Source of the DNA: Methanomassiliicoccaceae archaeon
GTDB taxonomy: Archaea > Thermoplasmatota > Thermoplasmata > Methanomassiliicoccales > Methanomethylophilaceae
NCBI GenBank assembly: GCA_016284295.1
Contig: JAEEOP010000033.1
Coordinates: 7,735-71,734 of the forward strand
Length of the DNA: 64,000 nucleotides
Reading direction: 5' to 3'
Each line of letters starts with the position of its first letter. Position 1 is the stretch's first letter. The notes under the pieces are model-generated. The model was given only the letters and a program-made list of their open reading frames with translations. It did not search any database and was not told the origin of the DNA. A program made the translations under genes and the position numbers. Below are positions 46,420 to 52,379 of the stretch, piece by piece.

Positions 46420-47154
46420 TCATATCCTGTCGAAGATGCCCTTGATCTTCCCGAGGGGCTTGAACGCAGGCTCCAGGAGACGTCTGGCATGCCCGATCAC
46501 GAACGCCATGTAAAGTTCCTTGGTGGACCTGGGGAAGTATGATAGCACCCTGTTGCGGTCCAGCTTTGCCGCGGTCATGATGATGTTCGAGTGGAATCCC
46601 CTGATGCCGAGGTCCAGGCCTTTGGCTATCATCCTGTTGGATGCGATCACCGCCCTGTCCGCGCTGTCTGCGAAGATGAAGAGGACCTGGCTTCCTTCCC
46701 AGAGCACCGGGTTGGGCTGCAGGATGTCCCTCTTGTCCCTCCATTCGCCCCATTCCCTGACGATCGGGGTGTCCGCCTCCTTGTCCTTCACGATCTGCCA
46801 GACGGTCTCCATGAAGCTGTTGAGCTCCTCGCCCTGGAGGACGAAGAACTCGCACCTCCTTTTGCCGTGGTCCATCGCGTAGAACAGATCCTGAAGATCC
46901 TCTTCCGAGACCACCCTGCCATCGAACATCTTGCCCTTCTTGATCGTATCGAAGAGGCCCTCGTCCTTCGCCTCCTTCGGCGCCAATTGGATGGCCCCTT
47001 TGGGGCATGAGGATACGCAATGGGAGCATTCCAGGCAGCCGTTCCCGGTCTCCTTCGCCTTGCGGTTCTCTATGACGATGTTGTTCTTCATGCACATGCG
47101 CGCGCATTTCCCGCAGCCGATGCACTTCTCCGTATCGATTATGAGGTGGTTCAT
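46420..47154 (-). CDS. 2x[4Fe-4S] ferredoxin fused to a divergent nitroreductase-like domain
   Basis: CIGCGKCARMC and CLECSHCVSSCP; downstream region has nitroreductase-like layout but no RRSxR or APSxxNxQ motif. Confidence 0.7.
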   Translation of the reverse strand: MNHLIIDTEKCIGCGKCARMCMKNNIVIENRKAKETGNGCLECSHCVSSCPKGAIQLAPKEAKDEGLFDTIKKGKMFDGRVVSEEDLQDLFYAMDHGKRRCEFFVLQGEELNSFMETVWQIVKDKEADTPIVREWGEWRDKRDILQPNPVLWEGSQVLFIFADSADRAVIASNRMIAKGLDLGIRGFHSNIIMTAAKLDRNRVLSYFPRSTKELYMAFVIGHARRLLEPAFKPLGKIKGIFDRI

Positions 47155-47503
47155 TCCACGGACGACTGTCCGTACGCAGATAAACAAGTATCGAGGAGAA
47201 ATGCTGGGATCGCGAACCATCCGCGGTCACCGATATCGAGGGGACTAAGCCTTGCACTAATCTGTTTAAATAGTCGGAAAGGGTCATCGCGCTGTCGTAC
47301 CGGCGAAGGGGCGTGATATCGTGATCGTCATGTGCACGGGACGGCATACAGTGGCCCTATCCCAACTTAGTTTGGGCTCCCGCGGGAGTCGGTGACGTGT
47401 CGTCACAGCAATGACCGGGGGTCAACGTGGGGTCCGACACATACCCCCGGTGTAAGTCAGTGCTCCGAGATCGGCGTCATCGTCGTTACCGTGAAAGAGT
47501 GTG

Positions 47504-48208
47504 TTAGCATTCGGGGGACAAGTTCTTCAGCACAGACATACCGAGGCAGTCCATCTGCTCCATGAGCCTGTCGCTGTCCGGGTACGCATCGATCTTCCTC
47601 ATGAACTGCCTGTTGCGGATCAGCGGATCTGCCCCGTACTCCAGAGATACGAAGGTCACCTGCGTGTAGAGCCCGAAGTCCAGCAGTTCGCTTTCGATGA
47701 TCGGCGCGTCCAGCCTGCGGCTGAGGCACACGGACCTCATGAGCGCGCTGGAGTGGCCCACCGTGCCTTCTCTGACCAGCGGAAGCCAGCCGATGGAGAG
47801 GTTCGGGACCCTCTCCACGAGCTTCTGGCCGATAAGCCTCTCGTACGATTCGAGGACGTTCTTGTAGCGGAAGTCCTCCGCACGGGTCATCCCGTCCAGC
47901 CTGCCCAGGTAGATCGGCTGGTTCCTCTTCACGAAATCGTCCGATTTCAGGTATTCCAGTGCCTTGTCGGAGTAGGGCACCTGGGAATCATCGGTGATCC
48001 TGGAGTAGATCGTGGTCGCCAGCGACTTGAGGACGTCCTCCGGGGCATCCTCGATGTAGTCGCTCACCCAGAAGTCTATGGACCCGTTCATGCGCCTCCA
48101 GGCGACCTTGAGGTCGGTCTCCTGGGAGTAGCCGGCGGTCACATGGGTGAATCCGTAATCCAGGCCCTTCTCGGTGAAGACCCTCGTCAGCATCTTATTG
48201 TCTGTCAT
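47504..48208 (-). CDS. Hypothetical protein, M48/SprT-like fold lacking HExxH
   Basis: DLKVAWRR..SIDFWVSDYIEDAPEDVL, GHSSALMRSVCLSRRLD; LYTQVTFV at the position where HExxH is expected. Confidence 0.55.
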   Translation of the reverse strand: MTDNKMLTRVFTEKGLDYGFTHVTAGYSQETDLKVAWRRMNGSIDFWVSDYIEDAPEDVLKSLATTIYSRITDDSQVPYSDKALEYLKSDDFVKRNQPIYLGRLDGMTRAEDFRYKNVLESYERLIGQKLVERVPNLSIGWLPLVREGTVGHSSALMRSVCLSRRLDAPIIESELLDFGLYTQVTFVSLEYGADPLIRNRQFMRKIDAYPDSDRLMEQMDCLGMSVLKNLSPEC

Positions 48209-48368
48209 CTGTCTTTTCCTGCTCTGCCGTAGAGCGGACCAGGACTCTCGGCGTGCAGATTATAAAGGTGACCTGTACGGTAACAGTGCCTTTCGTTTTA
48301 TCAGCGATTACAGGGTGTAAGTGAAAGAATTCGTTCCAGTATCATCAAGGTACCGACGGTGTACAAAG

Positions 48369-48384
48369 GTTACCTGCAAGTAAC
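48369..48384. promoter_or_regulatory. Candidate HxlR-type operator
   Basis: GTTAC-CTGCAA-GTAAC palindrome in the divergent intergenic region upstream of an operon that includes an HxlR regulator. Confidence 0.45.
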
Positions 48385-48471
48385 GCTGTTACTCATTAGT
48401 TACTTTATTACATGTAAGTATCTTTTTCATACTTATATCCCGATGTGAATGCAGTGTCGGAGTTGAAACAA

Positions 48472-49263
48472 ATGACAACCACAACAGAACAGCTCTCGAA
48501 AGGGAAAGTCACGACGATCGAATGCGGGGACCTTAACGTCCGCGTCTACAGCACGAACGATGCGATCAACGACCAGGTGATCCTTCTGGATCGTGCAGGG
48601 AAGGGAGTGGTCATAGAGCTCCCCTGCTTCCGCGACAGCATCGAGGAGATGACAGCTTACATCAAGGGGAAGGACATCTCCATCGAGGGAAAGCTCGTCT
48701 CATATCACGCGGCGGGATCCTCATTCCTCCCGGATGTCAAGAGCTACATGACGGATTCGTCGGTAGCCTACAATACGGACGGCGAGGGGGCGCAGTTAAT
48801 CAAGGGTTTCACAGGTGCATTCGGCTCCGGATTCGATTCGGGAACGGTCAACAGCGGAGAGAGGATCGGCGCCGGCACGATCGGCATCGGGGGAATAGAG
48901 CTCGAGATCATCCCTAACGGGGACGCATTCGAGGTGTACATCCCTGCCGCCAAGGCGGTCTATGTGCACATGATCGGACACGACTGCCATTCCATCGTGG
49001 GGAGTCCTGCACACGCCGATTCGATCATCAGGAACCTCAGAGGATACCTTGACAGGGGGACGCAGATCTTCCTCTCGTCCCACTACGGCCCCGAGACCAG
49101 GGAGGATGTGGAGGCAAAGATCGCATACCTCCAGGAGCTCAAGGACATCGCCGCCGGCAGCGAGGACAGGGAGGACTTCAAGGCCAGGGTCAACGCGATG
49201 TTCCCGGGGTATTCTGGTTCCAACTATCTCGACATGACGGCCGGTTTCCTCTTCAGGGACTGA
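48472..49263 (+). CDS. Metallo-beta-lactamase-fold-like protein (degenerate metal motif)
   Basis: VILLD..GVVIELP, LVSYHAAG, VYVHMIGHDCHS, FLSSHYGPE. Confidence 0.6.
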   Translation: MTTTTEQLSKGKVTTIECGDLNVRVYSTNDAINDQVILLDRAGKGVVIELPCFRDSIEEMTAYIKGKDISIEGKLVSYHAAGSSFLPDVKSYMTDSSVAYNTDGEGAQLIKGFTGAFGSGFDSGTVNSGERIGAGTIGIGGIELEIIPNGDAFEVYIPAAKAVYVHMIGHDCHSIVGSPAHADSIIRNLRGYLDRGTQIFLSSHYGPETREDVEAKIAYLQELKDIAAGSEDREDFKARVNAMFPGYSGSNYLDMTAGFLFRD

Positions 49264-49301
49264 GGGACAAGGATAAACCGTCGAAGGGAGATACGGGGAA
49301 C

Positions 49302-49628
49302 ATGAGAGAACTTCCAGCATGCCCTGTCGAGACCACTCTGCTCATGATAGGGGAGAAATGGAAAGTGCTGATACTGCGGGAGCTGCTCACGGGGACCAAG
49401 CGTTTCAGTGAGATCAAGGCGGCAGTATCGGGGGTATCGCAGAAGGTGCTCACGCAGAAGCTCCGCGAGATGGAATCCGACGGGTTGCTAACCCGCGAGG
49501 TGTTCCCCGAAGTCCCTCCGAGGGTGGAGTACACCCTTACCGATCTGGGCGAGACGCTCAGACCGATCCTCGATTCCATGAGGGATTGGGGAGCGGAGTA
49601 TCGGAACATCAATAAGGAGAATCGATGA
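49302..49628 (+). CDS. HxlR-family winged-helix regulator
   Basis: CPVETTLLMIGEKWKVLIL, RFSEI, SQKVLTQKLREME, VPPRVEYTLT. Confidence 0.93.
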   Translation: MRELPACPVETTLLMIGEKWKVLILRELLTGTKRFSEIKAAVSGVSQKVLTQKLREMESDGLLTREVFPEVPPRVEYTLTDLGETLRPILDSMRDWGAEYRNINKENR

Positions 49629-50473
49629 GTTCATCAGATGATTACAGGGAGGGGCTGCTGGAAGGGCTCATGTCGGAGACCGACGTAAGATTCCGGACCG
49701 GCGACATATCCGGCGCCGATTTGCAGAGGATGCTGATCCGCGCCTACATGAACATAAGGCGGCCGGCCCCCGCTACGGAGGAACTGCTCAGGATACAGGA
49801 CCTGTACCTGTCGGCACGGAGATCGGAGAGAGGTGTCGTGGATTCCGCGGGCATCCCCACGATCGACAGGTCGCTGGGGAGCACACGTCCCTTCTCGGAC
49901 AGGATCTGCCTCTGGCGGGGTGACATCACTACACTGGACTGCGACGCCATCGTAAACGCGGCGAATTCGCAGATGCTGGGGTGCTTCCAGCCATGCCATG
50001 CCTGCATCGACAACTGCATACACACGTATGCGGGCATGCAGATGAGGATGGAGTGTGATGCCAGGATGCGGGAGCTGAGGGCAAGATTCGGGGGCGGCTA
50101 CGAGCAGCCTACTGCTATACCGATGCTCACGGATGCATACAACCTCCCGTGCAGGAAAGTCATCCACGTTGTCGGACCGATCGTGCAGGAAACGCTCACC
50201 CCTGATCTGGAGAGGGATCTGGGCGATTGCTACAGGAACGTCCTCGACATGTGCAGGGACAACGGGATCAGATCCGTGGCCCTCTGTTGCATATCCACGG
50301 GCGTGTTCCACTTCCCTAACAAGCGGGCGGCGGAGATCGCGGTATCAGCAGTGGGCGGGTGGCTCGAGAACAACAGGGATTCGATGGACAGGGTGATATT
50401 CAATGTATTCCTCGAAAAGGACTGGAGCATCTACAAGGGACTTCTTTCTCGAGGTCCCGGACGGCTACCGTGA
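49625..50473 (+). CDS. Zinc-dependent macrodomain protein-ADP-ribose hydrolase
   Basis: GDITTLDCDAIVNAANSQMLGCFQPCHACIDNCIHTYAG, VIHVVGP, CISTGVFHFP. Confidence 0.92.
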   Translation: MSSSDDYREGLLEGLMSETDVRFRTGDISGADLQRMLIRAYMNIRRPAPATEELLRIQDLYLSARRSERGVVDSAGIPTIDRSLGSTRPFSDRICLWRGDITTLDCDAIVNAANSQMLGCFQPCHACIDNCIHTYAGMQMRMECDARMRELRARFGGGYEQPTAIPMLTDAYNLPCRKVIHVVGPIVQETLTPDLERDLGDCYRNVLDMCRDNGIRSVALCCISTGVFHFPNKRAAEIAVSAVGGWLENNRDSMDRVIFNVFLEKDWSIYKGLLSRGPGRLP

Positions 50474-51446
50474 GACCATATCCGAAGGTCAGAAGGCGAT
50501 CGGGTTCCTCGACAGGAGTCTCATGAGGGGGCCGGGCACCAAGGAGGGGAATATGAGGAGGCTCAGGGAGGCGATCGATTCCGCCGACGCCATAGTCGTC
50601 GGGGCCGGCGCAGGATTGAGCACATCCGCCGGTTTCACCTACAGCGGACCACGGTTCATGAGGTACTTCGGGGATTTCTTCGTCGCTTACGGGATCACGG
50701 ACATGTACTCCGGCGGATTCTATCCGTTCCCGGAGCCGGAGATTCAATGGGCATGGTGGAGCAGGCACATTTACTTCAACCGGTACGTGGACGCTCCCAA
50801 ACCGGTGTACAGGGACCTGCTCGGGCTCCTTGAGGGCAGGGAATACTTCGTTATCACCACGAATGTCGACCACCAGTTCCAAAGGGCCGGCATCGACAAG
50901 AGACGTCTCTTCTACACCCAGGGGGATTACGGCCTTCTCCAGACGAAGGACGGGAGGAACCGCAGGACGTATGACAACGAGGACATGGTCATCAGGATGA
51001 TGGAATCTCAGGGATTCGTCAGGGGCGGGAACGGCGAGTTCGCCATCCCGGAGGGAGGTGTGAGGATGAGGGTTTCCACCGAACTCATACCAAGGGATGA
51101 AACGACGGGCGAGCCGCTCGTGATGAACCTGCGCAGCGACGATTCCTTTTCCGAGGACGACGGCTGGGTCAGGGCATCTGCCGCATACTCAGATTTCCTG
51201 AGAAGGCATGACGGTCAGAAGGTCCTTTACATGGAACTGGGGGTGGGTTCGAACACCCCGGTGATCATCAAATTCCCGTTCTGGTACCGCACGTGGAAGA
51301 ACCCGAAGGCGACATATGCGTGTCTGAACCTCGGCGAGACGTTCTGTCCCAAGGGTATCTCGGACAGATCCATCTGCATAGACGGCGACCTGGCCGAGAC
51401 CATCTCGGCGTTGAAGGGGATAGAGGAAAGCCAGCGCACCGTATGA
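50403..51446 (+). CDS. Class M sirtuin (SirTM-like ADP-ribosyltransferase)
   Basis: GAGAGLSTSAG, FVITTNVDHQF, YTQGDYG, MNLRSDDSF, ELGVGSNTPVIIKFPFW; alternative start at 50553. Confidence 0.9.
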   Translation: MYSSKRTGASTRDFFLEVPDGYRETISEGQKAIGFLDRSLMRGPGTKEGNMRRLREAIDSADAIVVGAGAGLSTSAGFTYSGPRFMRYFGDFFVAYGITDMYSGGFYPFPEPEIQWAWWSRHIYFNRYVDAPKPVYRDLLGLLEGREYFVITTNVDHQFQRAGIDKRRLFYTQGDYGLLQTKDGRNRRTYDNEDMVIRMMESQGFVRGGNGEFAIPEGGVRMRVSTELIPRDETTGEPLVMNLRSDDSFSEDDGWVRASAAYSDFLRRHDGQKVLYMELGVGSNTPVIIKFPFWYRTWKNPKATYACLNLGETFCPKGISDRSICIDGDLAETISALKGIEESQRTV

Positions 51447-51544
51447 GGTCTCTTAGACGCTTCTCTATGATGCACCATCGCCCATGTGGTTTCCACGGGG
51501 CGGCGATGATAAGGCTTAAACGGAATCAACATCGTCGGCCACCC

Positions 51545-51931
51545 ATGCAGGAAGATTCCGAGCAGCGCAAGAAGACTGATATGATATTGAAGGCCATCGA
51601 GAACGAATATGGTTTCATCCCCGTGGTGAACCAGGTCCTGAGTGACCGTCCTGATATCTTCCTCCCGTCGGTGGCATTCAGCCAGACGGTCCTCGAGAAC
51701 AAGAACGGAGCCATCGGCAAGAAGGAAAGGTACCTCTGCGCCATCTCGGCAGCGGCGGCGGTCGGAGGGGAGTACTGCCTGAAGGTGCAGATCCAGCACG
51801 CCAAGGACGCAGGTGCATCCAAGGACGAGATCCTCGAGAGCATTATGATCGGCTCCATGATGTCCATGACGCGCTCCGAGTCCTATGCTCTAAGGGCCTA
51901 CGCCGATGCCTTCGATATCGAGTACAAGTAA
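51545..51931 (+). CDS. Carboxymuconolactone decarboxylase / AhpD-like protein
   Basis: KKERYLCAISAAAAVGGEYCLKVQIQHAKDAGASKDEILESI. Confidence 0.85.
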   Translation: MQEDSEQRKKTDMILKAIENEYGFIPVVNQVLSDRPDIFLPSVAFSQTVLENKNGAIGKKERYLCAISAAAAVGGEYCLKVQIQHAKDAGASKDEILESIMIGSMMSMTRSESYALRAYADAFDIEYK

Positions 51932-52052
51932 TCATTGGCGCATCCATCCAAACAGCCAGCCACGTGCTGGCTCTTTCTCCGACCCTACCGAAGTCCCGAA
52001 GAATCCGGGGCCATGTTTTATATTATCGTCGTTGTTAAGAGGGACGATACCA

Positions 52053-52379
52053 ATGGTAACCATCACTGAGGACGCAGAGAAGTTCATAACCGATCTGCTC
52101 GAGAAGAACCAGAAGACTGGATATGGAATCAAGATCTACGTCGCGGGATTCGCATGCTCCGGACCCCAGTTCGGTATGTCCTTCCAGGAGAAGGAGGCCG
52201 AGGGAGACATCATCGACGACACCGCAAAGGGATTCAAGATGTACTACGACGACGAGACCAAGAAGGAGCTCGACGAGTGCGTCATCGAATTCATCGACGA
52301 CCCCAACTTCGGAACGGGTCTCACCATCCGCAACCCCAACTTCAACGGTTGCGCCTCCTGCGGCGGCGGATGCCACTAA
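52053..52379 (+). CDS. HesB/IscA-family Fe-S cluster carrier
   Basis: ITEDA, YVAGFACSGPQFGM, NPNFNGCASCGGGCH. Confidence 0.85.
   Translation: MVTITEDAEKFITDLLEKNQKTGYGIKIYVAGFACSGPQFGMSFQEKEAEGDIIDDTAKGFKMYYDDETKKELDECVIEFIDDPNFGTGLTIRNPNFNGCASCGGGCH

What the first reader, a model, noticed from the sequence alone, without database searches (positions are those of the whole stretch)
49302..52379. Zn-macrodomain/SirTM ADP-ribosylation pair without GcvH-L or lipoate ligase
Known: in Streptococcus/Staphylococcus this pair reversibly ADP-ribosylates lipoylated GcvH-L encoded in the same operon with LplA. Seen: here the pair follows an MBL-fold gene and an HxlR regulator (ATGA-coupled to the macrodomain) and precedes an AhpD/CMD-like protein and an IscA/HesB carrier; no GcvH-L or LplA lies in the window. 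Inference: the target is different or encoded in trans, and the redox and Fe-S neighbours point to an oxidative-stress ADP-ribosylation circuit in a strict anaerobe.
Basis: partly seen in the sequence, partly recalled or inferred. Interest (0 to 1): 0.62.

Follow-up and report, generated by a model that had tools for sequence, protein, structure and literature searches.

The report
Mobile archaeal ADP-ribosylation stress cassette

Summary
The genes at 49302-52379 are an HxlR regulator, a Zn-macrodomain (ATGA-coupled to HxlR), a SirTM, a CMD protein and an IscA/HesB protein. An MBL-fold gene lies upstream. No GcvH or LplA is in the 64 kb window.

SirTM/Zn-Macro pairs without GcvH-L/LplA are a published class ("minimal operon"), which includes archaeal (Methanobrevibacter) members.

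CMD and IscA are resident neighbours. Six related Methanomassiliicoccales contigs read U234|CMD-IscA-Hef-ligase with no cassette between, so a ~3.2 kb insert (about 48276-51500) split that spacer. CMD keeps its own TATA-like box. In two metatranscriptomes IscA contigs have about 10-25 times the assembler depth of the pair.

The unit that travels together is U263 (263-aa MBL-fold protein, no Pfam family) + HxlR + Zn-Macro + SirTM. It recurs in Methanomassiliicoccales and gut Clostridia. A palindromic operator, GTTACC-N4-GGTAAC, is conserved upstream of U263.

Most likely it is a thiol/electrophile-stress regulon in which the pair reversibly ADP-ribosylates an unknown target. U263 is the best candidate.

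The parts
48369..48384 (.). Candidate HxlR operator, GTTACCTGCAAGTAAC (consensus GTTACC-N4-GGTAAC), about 100 nt upstream of the U263 start codon.
   Evidence: It is the only match (up to 2 mismatches) in the 64 kb window. In 57 of 80 related loci the same palindrome lies within 300 nt upstream of U263. Of 103 matches in 987 kb, 75 fall in that 2.7% of the sequence. Loci without an adjacent HxlR mostly lack it.
48388..48403 (.). Second, degenerate operator-like site, GTTACTCATTAGTTAC, 19 nt after the first.
   Evidence: Equivalent second sites 19-25 nt from the first are seen in L005, L006, L011 and many bacterial loci. This copy has 3 mismatches to the consensus, so it is weaker evidence.
48418..48441 (+). 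Conserved A/T-rich block GTATCTTTTTCATACTTATATCC. It is the likely archaeal BRE/TATA promoter of the cassette.
   Evidence: The block (GTTTCTTTTTGATACTTATAC) is nearly identical upstream of U263 in L005-L011. The promoter function is inferred.
48472..49263 (+). U263: a 263-aa cytosolic MBL-fold protein of an unannotated family. The canonical HxHxDH motif is absent. H79, H166, H170-D171-C172-H173 and H204 are invariant.
   Evidence: There is no Pfam or NCBIfam hit. The AF2 model has pLDDT 91.8. The Foldseek top hit is 6UXU, chlorothalonil dehalogenase (TMq 0.69), followed by B1 MBLs at probability 1.0. Conservation is shown. The family has about 650 clusters at 50% identity.
49302..49628 (+). 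HxlR/DUF24-family regulator of the one-Cys type, with an invariant Cys7.
   Evidence: PF01638, E 1.4e-35. PDB relatives are YybR/HypR, HxlR and YodB. Cys7 is present in 65 of 65 cassette-linked homologues.
49625..50473 (+). Zn-macrodomain (ADP-ribosyl hydrolase, the 'eraser'), ATGA-coupled to HxlR.
   Evidence: NAAN 111-114, the Zn-loop C120-x4-H125-x-C127 and D129-x3-H133 are all present, and invariant in 51-52 of 52 homologues.
50403..51446 (+). SirTM (class M sirtuin, ADP-ribosyltransferase, the 'writer'). The likely start is 50403, which overlaps the last 71 nt of the macro gene. Alternative starts are 50523 and 50553.
   Evidence: PDB 5A3A, 4e-50. The N-terminal PDGYRETISEG block upstream of 50523 is conserved at protein level. 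The catalytic N154/Q173/R244 (347-aa numbering) are invariant in 49-50 of 50 homologues.
51545..51931 (+). CMD/AhpD-family gene. It is a resident neighbour and not part of the cassette.
   Evidence: It directly follows U234 in six relatives that lack the cassette. A TATA-like box (GGCTTAAAC; TTTATAAAC in relatives) is kept about 25-30 nt upstream of the ATG. No CMD hit occurs in the 81 cassette loci outside this species.
52053..52379 (+). IscA/HesB-family gene. It is a resident neighbour and a separate transcription unit.
   Evidence: Synteny without the cassette is shown. A hairpin at 51993-52011 and TTTTATATTA lie upstream. Metatranscriptome contig depth is 92 against 3-6 for Macro/SirTM in X25, and 30-37 against 2-4 in X27.

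Best explanation
The window holds a self-contained four-gene cassette of about 3.2 kb, at roughly 48276-51500. Its parts are a promoter with a GTTACC-N4-GGTAAC operator, U263 (an MBL-fold metallo-hydrolase-like protein), hxlR, a Zn-macrodomain and SirTM. It lies in a Methanomassiliicoccales (Methanomethylophilaceae-like) rumen/gut archaeon, inserted into the spacer between two resident genes (U234 and CMD).

Proposed mechanism:
1. The one-Cys HxlR-type regulator binds the palindromic operator and controls the cassette, including its own gene.
2. Modification of its invariant Cys7 by an oxidant or electrophile changes binding, and the cassette is expressed.
3. U263 is the enzymatic output of the regulon, probably a small-molecule hydrolase.
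4. SirTM uses NAD+ to mono-ADP-ribosylate a protein target, and the Zn-macrodomain removes the mark.
5. The target is not a lipoyl-GcvH-L encoded in cis. The only non-regulatory protein that travels with the pair is U263, so it is the leading candidate. HxlR itself or a protein encoded in trans are alternatives.

Shown here: gene identities, catalytic motifs, cassette conservation, operator conservation, and the insertion into conserved synteny. Inferred: regulator-operator binding, the inducing signal, enzyme activities, and the target.

The CMD and IscA genes downstream are unrelated housekeeping neighbours.
For: Identity of the pair:
- The SirTM catalytic N/Q/R trio and the Zn-Macro NAAN, Cx4HxC and Dx3H motifs are present and invariant across homologues.

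The cassette travels as a unit:
- U263 relatives were found in at least 575 species genomes.
- Among loci with at least 2.5 kb on both sides, 29 of 33 bacterial loci have HxlR within 1.5 kb and 25-26 of 33 have Zn-Macro and SirTM. In archaeal loci 6 of 18 have HxlR within 1.5 kb (more lie further off) and 7-8 of 18 have the pair.
- Clustering all neighbours within 5 kb gives only three recurrent families: Zn-Macro, SirTM and HxlR.
- A relative with an 81% identical SirTM (L005) has the same four genes in the same order in a wholly different genomic context.

Insertion:
- Six related contigs with about 72% Hef identity read ACS-Fer4-U234|CMD-IscA-Hef-ligase with only 47-95 nt where the window has 3.3 kb.

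Operator.

Regulator: Cys7 is invariant, and the closest solved relatives are the thiol/aldehyde sensors HypR/YybR, HxlR and YodB.

U263:
- The fold is confidently MBL.
- Distant family members are fused to ABM and SnoaL small-molecule-enzyme domains or are secreted.

SirTM tree:
- Archaeal cassettes carry SirTMs from two different SirTM clades (100* and 99* support), while their U263 proteins form one archaeal clade. This suggests the association was made or renewed more than once.

Literature:
- Lone pairs are a published class, and their Zn-Macros do not act on GcvH-L (PMC11490716).
- Methanobacteriales, which carry published lone pairs, lack lipoylation pathways altogether (PMC3904984).
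Against: - No biochemical data exist for any protein of this cassette.
- About a third of U263+HxlR loci have no adjacent pair, and some U263 genes stand alone. U263 therefore has a function of its own, and the link to SirTM is not obligatory.
- The closest bacterial SirTM relatives sit with other regulators and partners, such as Rrf2, a PNPOx/Fer4 protein or a 2-hydroxyacid dehydrogenase. The target may therefore be a common protein in trans rather than the local partner.
- The operator lies upstream of the presumed TATA box. In archaea that position fits activation as well as repression.
- No RNA contig covered U263 in the three clearly RNA runs that covered HxlR, Macro and SirTM. Co-transcription of U263 with the rest is therefore not shown, though contig depth of 0 is not evidence of absence.
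- The own genome could not be searched for gcvH/lplA.
- The trees are quick searches, and backbone support is only 85-88.
Confidence: 0.75

Rival explanations
1. The pair, the MBL protein, the CMD/AhpD-like protein and the IscA/HesB carrier form one co-transcribed oxidative-stress ADP-ribosylation circuit. CMD or IscA is the target.
For: All six genes are on the same strand with gaps of only about 100-120 nt. CMD and IscA families have redox and Fe-S roles. A 559-nt contig from a run of unknown type spans the SirTM stop through CMD.
Against: - CMD and IscA accompany the cassette only in same-species contigs (L001-L004). They are absent from 81 other cassette loci.
- Six relatives have CMD-IscA in the same synteny without the cassette.
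- CMD keeps the ancestral TATA-like box.
- IscA is preceded by a hairpin and a TATA-like box, and its RNA contig depth is 10-25 times higher.
- The CMD protein has GEYC where the family's CxxC redox motif would be (sequence; the motif is from my own knowledge).
Confidence: 0.05
2. The target is a GcvH-like lipoyl (or other) carrier protein encoded elsewhere in the genome. The cassette then works like the staphylococcal system, but in trans.
For: GcvH-L is the only proven SirTM substrate (PMC4518038, PMC11490716). The own genome could not be searched. Some Thermoplasmatota have lipoate ligases (PMC10332631).
Against: - No GcvH or LplA was found in the window or within 8 kb of any of about 90 related loci.
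- Lone-pair and archaeal Zn-Macros (MorMacro, the best PDB match to this protein) do not demodify GcvH-L and lack the basic docking patch (PMC11490716).
- Obligately anaerobic methanogen orders that were surveyed lack lipoylation (PMC3904984).
Confidence: 0.08
3. The pair acts on a common cellular protein or on the regulator itself, for example on the sensing cysteine of HxlR. U263 is then only a co-regulated detoxification enzyme.
For: - Close SirTM relatives sit beside different 'cargo' genes but usually beside a redox-type regulator: Rrf2 in L087 and L090, HxlR here.
- hxlR is translationally coupled to the macro gene in this archaeal arrangement.
- Zn-Macros are reported to cleave Cys-ADP-ribose (PMC11490716).
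- U263+HxlR occur without the pair in about a third of loci.
Against: There is no direct evidence. In bacterial cassettes hxlR is divergently transcribed and U263 is the gene joined to the pair. Regulator ADP-ribosylation by a sirtuin has no precedent that I know of.
Confidence: 0.12

Closest known systems
Lone ('minimal operon') SirTM/Zn-Macro pairs, e.g. Methanobrevibacter oralis MorMacro/SirTM (PDB 8RSI-8RSK), Enterococcus faecalis, Treponema pedis (Ariza et al. 2024, PMC11490716; Rack et al. 2015, PMC4518038)
   Same: The macro and sirtuin genes are adjacent and overlapping, with no GcvH-L or LplA. The Zn-loop Cx4HxC, NAAN and Dx3H motifs are present, and the N-terminal extension aligns to MorMacro. 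The SirTM has the QG motif with the N/Q/R trio. The host is archaeal. The best PDB match of the macrodomain is MorMacro, at 1.7e-60.
   Different: - The host order is Methanomassiliicoccales. It is absent from the published tables, which list only Methanobrevibacter and Methanosphaera.
- The pair is embedded in a conserved four-gene cassette with an HxlR regulator, its operator and an MBL-fold protein. The searchable literature does not mention this: no paper holds both 'SirTM' and 'HxlR'.
- This SirTM clade has lost the four cysteines that SpySirTM has at its small-domain zinc site. The window reads T/R/D/T at those positions.
Extended SirTM operon of Staphylococcus aureus / Streptococcus pyogenes (OYE, LLM, GcvH-L, Zn-Macro, SirTM, LplA2)
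   Same: It has a writer/eraser pair with the same catalytic motifs. It is associated with stress-related enzymes and is proposed to act in oxidative-stress responses.
   Different: There is no GcvH-L, LplA, OYE or LLM. The partner is an MBL-fold protein, and a dedicated HxlR regulator is encoded in the unit. Lipoylation dependence is unlikely.
HxlR/DUF24-family thiol or aldehyde sensors: B. subtilis YodB, HypR (YybR), HxlR
   Same: PF01638 winged helix, 72-101 bits to the solved structures. A conserved N-terminal Cys aligns with the sensing Cys region. A palindromic operator lies next to a gene for a putative detoxification enzyme.
   Different: The host is archaeal, so the regulator must act on a TBP/TFB-type promoter. 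It has a single Cys only, and it lacks the Lys two residues after the Cys that I recall HxlR using for formaldehyde cross-linking (own knowledge). The signal is unknown.
Metallo-beta-lactamase superfamily (closest fold: chlorothalonil dehalogenase Chd, PDB 6UXU; B1 MBLs)
   Same: The alpha-beta/beta-alpha sandwich fold matches at Foldseek probability 1.0 and TMq 0.5-0.69. Several invariant His and Asp residues are present.
   Different: There is no HxHxDH motif (YHAAG stands at that position), no Pfam Lactamase_B hit, and only 10-16% identity. The family-specific motif is H-M-x-G-H-D-C-H-S.

Membership tests
SirTM (class M, macrodomain-linked ADP-ribosylating sirtuins) | Sequence homology to a characterised SirTM across the Sir2 fold | tested here: met
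   phmmer against 5A3A (SpySirTM): E 4e-50, residues 52-341 aligned to chain residues 26-300.
SirTM (class M, macrodomain-linked ADP-ribosylating sirtuins) | Catalytic His replaced by Gln (QG motif), plus Asn and Arg. The trio is N118/Q137/R192 in SpySirTM (PMC8120803). | tested here: met
   The window residues N154, Q173 and R244 (347-aa numbering) align to the SpySirTM trio. They are invariant in 49-50 of 50 cassette SirTMs.
SirTM (class M, macrodomain-linked ADP-ribosylating sirtuins) | Genetic linkage to a Zn-macrodomain gene | tested here: met
   The macro gene lies directly upstream, and the ORFs overlap by 71 nt if the SirTM start is 50403. The same linkage is seen in the relatives.
SirTM (class M, macrodomain-linked ADP-ribosylating sirtuins) | NAD+-dependent protein mono-ADP-ribosyltransferase activity | not testable with these tools
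   This needs an enzyme assay.
Zn-Macro subfamily of MacroD-type macrodomains | Zn-loop Cx(4)HxC replacing the glycine-rich catalytic loop (PMC11490716) | tested here: met
   C120-FQPC-H125-A-C127. C120, H125 and C127 are invariant in 51-52 of 52 homologues.
Zn-Macro subfamily of MacroD-type macrodomains | NAAN motif and Dx3H catalytic dyad | tested here: met
   N111-A-A-N114 and D129-NCI-H133 are present and invariant in 52 of 52 homologues, apart from one A113G.
Zn-Macro subfamily of MacroD-type macrodomains | N-terminal extension (three-helix bundle) before the macro domain | tested here: met
   About 90 residues precede the Pfam Macro match (110-239). They align to MorMacro 8RSI from residue 20 onward. 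The fold itself was not modelled here.
Zn-Macro subfamily of MacroD-type macrodomains | Zinc-dependent ADP-ribosyl hydrolase activity | not testable with these tools
   This needs an enzyme assay and a metal analysis.
Extended SirTM operon (GcvH-L / LplA2 / OYE / LLM type) | GcvH-L carrier gene in the operon | tested here: not met
   A six-frame phmmer search with E. coli GcvH gave a best E of 1.3 in the window, and nothing within 8 kb in about 90 related loci.
Extended SirTM operon (GcvH-L / LplA2 / OYE / LLM type) | Lipoate-protein ligase gene in the operon | tested here: not met
   A six-frame phmmer search with E. coli LplA gave a best E of 0.16 in the window. The Pfam hits of the neighbouring genes are Fer4, HxlR, Macro, CMD, Fe-S_biosyn and helicase only.
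Lone ('minimal operon') SirTM/Zn-Macro pair | Pair present without GcvH-L/LplA in cis, with the macrodomain of the non-extended-operon branch | tested here: met
   Absence in cis is shown. The best solved relative is the lone-pair archaeal MorMacro (207.9 bits), ahead of SauMacro and SpyMacro (169 and 149 bits). No formal tree with the published set was built.
HxlR/DUF24 family of MarR-type regulators | PF01638 domain with a conserved N-terminal sensing cysteine | tested here: met
   PF01638, 121 bits. Cys7 is present in 65 of 65 homologues. It aligns with YodB, HypR and HxlR structures.
HxlR/DUF24 family of MarR-type regulators | Response to oxidant, electrophile or aldehyde through thiol modification | not testable with these tools
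   This needs EMSA or in vivo induction.
Metallo-beta-lactamase superfamily (for U263) | Alpha-beta/beta-alpha MBL fold | tested here: met
   AF2 model with pLDDT 91.8 and pTM 0.88. Foldseek gives 424 PDB hits at E<=0.001, and the listed top 50 are all MBL-fold proteins.
Metallo-beta-lactamase superfamily (for U263) | HxHxDH metal-binding motif and a match to a Lactamase_B profile | tested here: not met
   The sequence at the motif position is S-Y-H-A-A-G. None of 25 family members hits a Pfam MBL model, even at E<=10. U263 is therefore MBL-fold but not a member of any described MBL family.

The most novel reading that the evidence does not exclude
The unannotated MBL-fold protein U263 is the physiological substrate, or an obligate co-enzyme, of this branch of lone SirTM/Zn-Macro pairs. 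It would take the place that lipoyl-GcvH-L holds in staphylococci. Reversible ADP-ribosylation would gate a metallo-hydrolase under the control of a thiol-sensing HxlR regulator. The whole writer/eraser/target/sensor unit, with its operator, would have moved between gut Clostridia and methanogenic archaea.
Probability: 0.25. Interest if true: 0.7.

Novelty: new variant of a known kind. Interest (0 to 1): 0.42.

Why it matters
The only known substrate of any SirTM is GcvH-L. Ariza et al. 2024 state that the targets and physiological role of the lone and fused systems are unknown. This cassette has a single conserved non-regulatory partner (U263), a dedicated sensor and a recognisable operator. 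It is kept in two domains of life and inserted at different genomic sites. That narrows the open question to a few purified-protein experiments.

It also shows that the pair occurs in Methanomassiliicoccales, the methyl-reducing gut and rumen methanogens. In addition, a bacterial-type regulator/operator unit is retained in front of an archaeal promoter.

Tried and rejected
2. Notes of this scan on the same genome hold nothing on lipoate or GcvH.
3. Literature on lipoylation in Methanomassiliicoccales. Nothing specific was found. Only the 2014 archaeal survey was useful, and it does not cover this order.
4. Sequence-profile identification of U263. Pfam, NCBIfam and PDB by sequence all gave nothing significant. 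The best was a faint E = 0.022 match to an MBL over residues 33-79. Only the fold search worked.
5. Rosetta-stone fusions of U263 with Macro, SirTM or HxlR. None were found. The fusions seen are with ABM, SnoaL, SLH, LysM, Big_2 and transglutaminase domains.
6. A residue of U263 specific to SirTM-linked copies. None was found. The HDCH motif and all other conserved residues are the same whether or not the pair is adjacent.
7. Terminal repeats, tRNA or att-like sites at the insert borders. None were found.
8. Rfam families in 46-54 kb. None matched.
9. The sigma-70 promoter scan found nothing, as expected for an archaeon.
10. RNA evidence for U263-hxlR co-transcription. Only low-depth assembler contigs were available. 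Runs X28, X33 and X34 are of unknown type and cannot be used.
11. The idea that the CMD gene is an AhpD-type peroxidase partner was rejected on synteny and because the CxxC motif is missing.

Full report
**1. What is in the sequence**

ORF listing and profile searches give this + strand series:

| Gene | Coordinates | Evidence |
|---|---|---|
| U263 | 48472-49263 | 263 aa, no Pfam or NCBIfam hit |
| HxlR | 49302-49628 | PF01638, 1.4e-35 |
| Macrodomain | 49625-50473 | PF01661; NF003163 'protein-ADP-ribose hydrolase' 269.8 bits |
| Sirtuin-like ORF | 50403-51446 | see below |
| CMD protein | 51545-51931 | PF02627 |
| IscA/HesB protein | 52053-52379 | PF01521 |
| Hef-type helicase, ATP-dependent DNA ligase, P-type ATPase | downstream | |

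HxlR and the macrodomain overlap as ATGA.

- The sirtuin-like ORF matches S. pyogenes SirTM (5A3A) at 4e-50.
- The macrodomain matches MorMacro (8RSI) at 1.7e-60, SauMacro (5KIV/8RSL) at about 1e-48, and SpyMacro (8RSM) at 1.7e-42.
- The macrodomain carries the family's defining motifs: NAAN, Cx4HxC and Dx3H (PMC11490716; sequence).
- The SirTM carries the N/Q/R catalytic trio (PMC8120803; alignment).
- All of these residues are invariant in about 50 homologues taken from related loci.
- Six-frame phmmer searches of all 64 kb with E. coli GcvH and LplA gave only noise, with a best E of 0.16.

The organism is a Methanomassiliicoccales (Methanomethylophilaceae-type) archaeon from ruminant gut. 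This follows from the titles of the closest genome records and from the samples that hold the sequence.

**2. The pair without GcvH-L/LplA is a published class**

- Ariza et al. [quoted passage not shown]
- They solved the macrodomain of a lone archaeal pair (Methanobrevibacter oralis).
- They showed that lone-pair and fusion Zn-Macros cannot demodify GcvH-L.
- They call the targets of such systems unknown.
- Their tables list Methanobrevibacter and Methanosphaera but no Methanomassiliicoccales.
- Methanobacteriales lack lipoylation altogether (PMC3904984), so archaeal lone pairs in that order cannot act on a lipoyl protein.

**3. CMD and IscA do not belong to the system**

Three independent lines support this.

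(a) Co-conservation:
- Among loci fetched through U263 relatives (80 genome loci) and through the closest SirTM relative (L005), none outside the window's own species has a CMD or IscA homologue near the pair.
- L005 has an 81% identical SirTM and the same gene order, U263-HxlR-Macro-SirTM. It is followed by an FAD oxidase and sits in a quite different neighbourhood.

(b) Synteny:
- Contigs of relatives found through the Hef helicase (about 72% identity) read ACS - Fer4 protein - U234(-) | CMD(+) - IscA - Hef - ligase - ATPase.
- Six of them (L094, L095, L097-L100) cover the junction. They have only 47-95 nt between U234 and CMD, where the window has 3.3 kb.
- The flanks align up to about 48275 and again from about 51500.
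- The A/T box upstream of CMD (TTTATAAAC in relatives, GGCTTAAAC in the window) is retained.
- The four genes are therefore an insert of about 3.2 kb into a conserved spacer.
- No terminal repeats or tRNA mark its ends.

(c) Expression:
- In two gut metatranscriptomes, assembled RNA contigs identical to the window cover IscA at depth 92 and 30-37.
- HxlR, Macro and SirTM contigs have depth 2-10.
- A hairpin and TTTTATATTA lie between CMD and IscA.
- Assembler depth is a poor measure of expression, so this line is supportive only.

**4. The unit that is conserved**

- U263 relatives occur in at least 575 species genomes, in Methanomassiliicoccales and in gut Clostridia, mainly Oscillospiraceae and Ruminococcaceae.
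- Among loci with at least 2.5 kb on each side:
  - 29 of 33 bacterial loci have an HxlR gene within 1.5 kb, usually divergent.
  - 25-26 of 33 bacterial loci have Zn-Macro and SirTM directly downstream.
  - In archaeal loci the figures are 6 of 18 (more lie further off) and 7-8 of 18.
- Unsupervised clustering of all neighbours within 5 kb finds no other recurrent family.
- The top SirTM hits and the top U263 hits in the 5.8-billion-protein collection share contig lengths (6135, 12505 and 8702 nt). This fits the idea that they lie on the same contigs.

A 16-bp palindrome, GTTACC-N4-GGTAAC, lies upstream of U263:
- In the window its single occurrence in 64 kb is at 48369-48384.
- It is present within 300 nt upstream of U263 in 57 of 80 loci.
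- 75 of all 103 matches in 987 kb fall there.
- It is often doubled at a spacing of 19-25 nt.
- It is mostly absent where no HxlR is adjacent.
- In the archaeal relatives a nearly identical A/T block (…TTTCTTTTTGATACTTATAC…) follows. This is probably the BRE/TATA.

The HxlR protein:
- It has one cysteine, Cys7, invariant in 65 of 65 homologues.
- Its closest solved relatives are HypR/YybR, HxlR and YodB.
- From my own knowledge, these sense hypochlorite/diamide, formaldehyde and quinones through an N-terminal cysteine.

**5. U263**

- The AF2 model is confident: pLDDT 91.8, pTM 0.88.
- Foldseek places it in the MBL fold. The top hit is 6UXU, chlorothalonil dehalogenase (TMq 0.69), and hundreds of MBLs match at probability 1.0.
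- The canonical HxHxDH is replaced by S-Y-H-A-A-G.
- The invariant residues are H79, D122, H166, H170-D171-C172-H173, H181, D183, H204, E208 and D212.
- An exhaustive profile search finds about 650 clusters at 50% identity.
- More distant members are secreted, or are fused to ABM monooxygenase or SnoaL-like domains. They keep H79, H166, H173 and H204 but not the HDC triplet.
- This points to a metal-dependent enzyme that acts on small molecules. That is an inference.
- No fusion to Macro, SirTM or HxlR was found.

**6. Evolution**

- The U263 tree separates an archaeal clade from a bacterial clade.
- The few 'bacterial' rows inside the archaeal clade are probably binning errors.
- A Methanomassiliicoccus group is sister to the bacteria.
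- Linkage to the pair is scattered through both clades.
- In the SirTM tree, the window, L005 and L007-L009 fall in a clade with 100* support, together with bacterial SirTMs that are not U263-linked. Those bacterial genes sit with Rrf2-type regulators and other partners.
- The other archaeal cassettes (L014-L031) form a separate clade with 99* support, among Clostridial U263-linked SirTMs.
- U263 and HxlR therefore appear to have been joined to SirTM/Zn-Macro pairs of two different origins. This argues for a functional tie rather than chance adjacency.
- The backbone support of this quick tree is modest (85-88).
- The 100* clade has lost the four cysteines that SpySirTM has in its small domain. 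The window reads T, R, D and T there.

**7. Gene start of SirTM**

- Homologues conserve a PDGYRETISEG…LDR block upstream of the two internal ATGs.
- The start is therefore most likely 50403, giving 347 aa and a 71-nt overlap with the macro gene.
- hxlR, macro and sirTM then form a chain of overlapping genes, as in L005-L009.

**8. Mechanism proposed**

- An HxlR-type one-Cys sensor bound to the palindromic operator controls the cassette promoter.
- Thiol stress switches it.
- U263 is the enzymatic output.
- SirTM and Zn-Macro write and erase mono-ADP-ribose on a target that is not GcvH-L in cis.
- U263 is the best candidate (about 25%). HxlR itself or a protein in trans are alternatives.
- Identities, motifs, conservation, the operator and the insertion are shown. 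Binding, signal, activities and target are inferred.

**9. Relation to earlier notes of this scan**

- After I had formed this reading (recorded), look-ups showed that other windows had been noted with MBL-fold/Zn-Macro/SirTM operons next to HxlR in Clostridia: e1-1500800, e1-3652420 and e1-4717299.
- Lone pairs with other partners under HxlR or Rrf2 regulators had also been noted: e1-1976059, e1-2020670 and e1-4115138.
- These are unchecked AI notes. They agree with what I measured here but are not independent evidence.

**10. Verdict**

- The pair is real and ordinary for its published class.
- Its presence in Methanomassiliicoccales is a new host order as far as the papers I read show.
- The conserved four-gene cassette with regulator, operator and MBL-fold partner is a variant architecture. 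I did not find it in the literature I could search: no paper holds both 'SirTM' and 'HxlR'.
- Interest is moderate. The cassette gives concrete candidates for a stated open question, but there is no functional evidence yet.

Noticed in passing
window 50403-51446 (SirTM residues T181, R185, D232, T235 in 347-aa numbering): This SirTM and its whole clade have lost the four cysteines that align with SpySirTM's QCSQHC…HCPEC. The clade has 100* support and includes many gut-metagenome proteins of 64-82% identity. 44 of 50 other cassette SirTMs keep C-C-C-C at these positions. The sirtuin small-domain zinc site is apparently dispensable here.
   Followed up: partly
window 49241 joined to 51216 (run X34, one contig, depth 3): A low-depth metagenomic contig from a run of unknown type joins the 3' end of U263 to the 3' part of SirTM, skipping 1974 nt (hxlR, macro and most of sirTM). 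It could be a deletion variant or an assembly chimera.
   Followed up: no
window 51545-51931 (CMD protein): The CMD/AhpD-family protein reads G-E-Y-C where the family usually has a C-x-x-C redox motif (own knowledge of the family). Its best NCBIfam hits are to groups that contain selenoproteins (GSU3128 family). The neighbouring IscA likewise hits 'HesB_rel_seleno'. CMD-IscA is a conserved pair in relatives.
   Followed up: partly
window 47504-48208 (-) (U234): A 234-aa protein with no Pfam or NCBIfam hit is conserved in the same position, divergent from CMD, in at least six related Methanomassiliicoccales contigs.
   Followed up: no
L097 5573-7162 and L098 7959-9548: In two related contigs the Hef-type helicase gene matches as two adjacent ORFs (about 116 aa and 413 aa) split by a stop. 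It may be a pseudogene, a recoding site or a sequencing error.
   Followed up: no
L012, L026, L035 (genome contigs records): Contigs labelled Bifidobacteriaceae and Eggerthellaceae carry U263 genes that nest inside the archaeal clade. A contig labelled Alistipes communis carries a Clostridia-type cassette. These are probably metagenome binning errors rather than transfers.
   Followed up: partly
L032, L054, L066 (bacterial cassettes): In some Clostridia a Fer4-containing protein gene lies between U263 and the Zn-Macro gene. It is weakly similar to the window's 266-aa Fer4 protein at 46420-47220. In L090 a PNPOx/Fer4 protein and an Rrf2 regulator directly precede a closely related SirTM, and no macro gene was called on the part of the contig that was held.
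   Followed up: no
window 48257-48273: GTGACC-TGTAC-GGTAAC, an operator-like palindrome with a 5-nt spacer, lies next to the presumed U234 promoter at the left border of the insert. A similar sequence exists at that place in the cassette-free relative L099, so it may be ancestral rather than an HxlR site.
   Followed up: no
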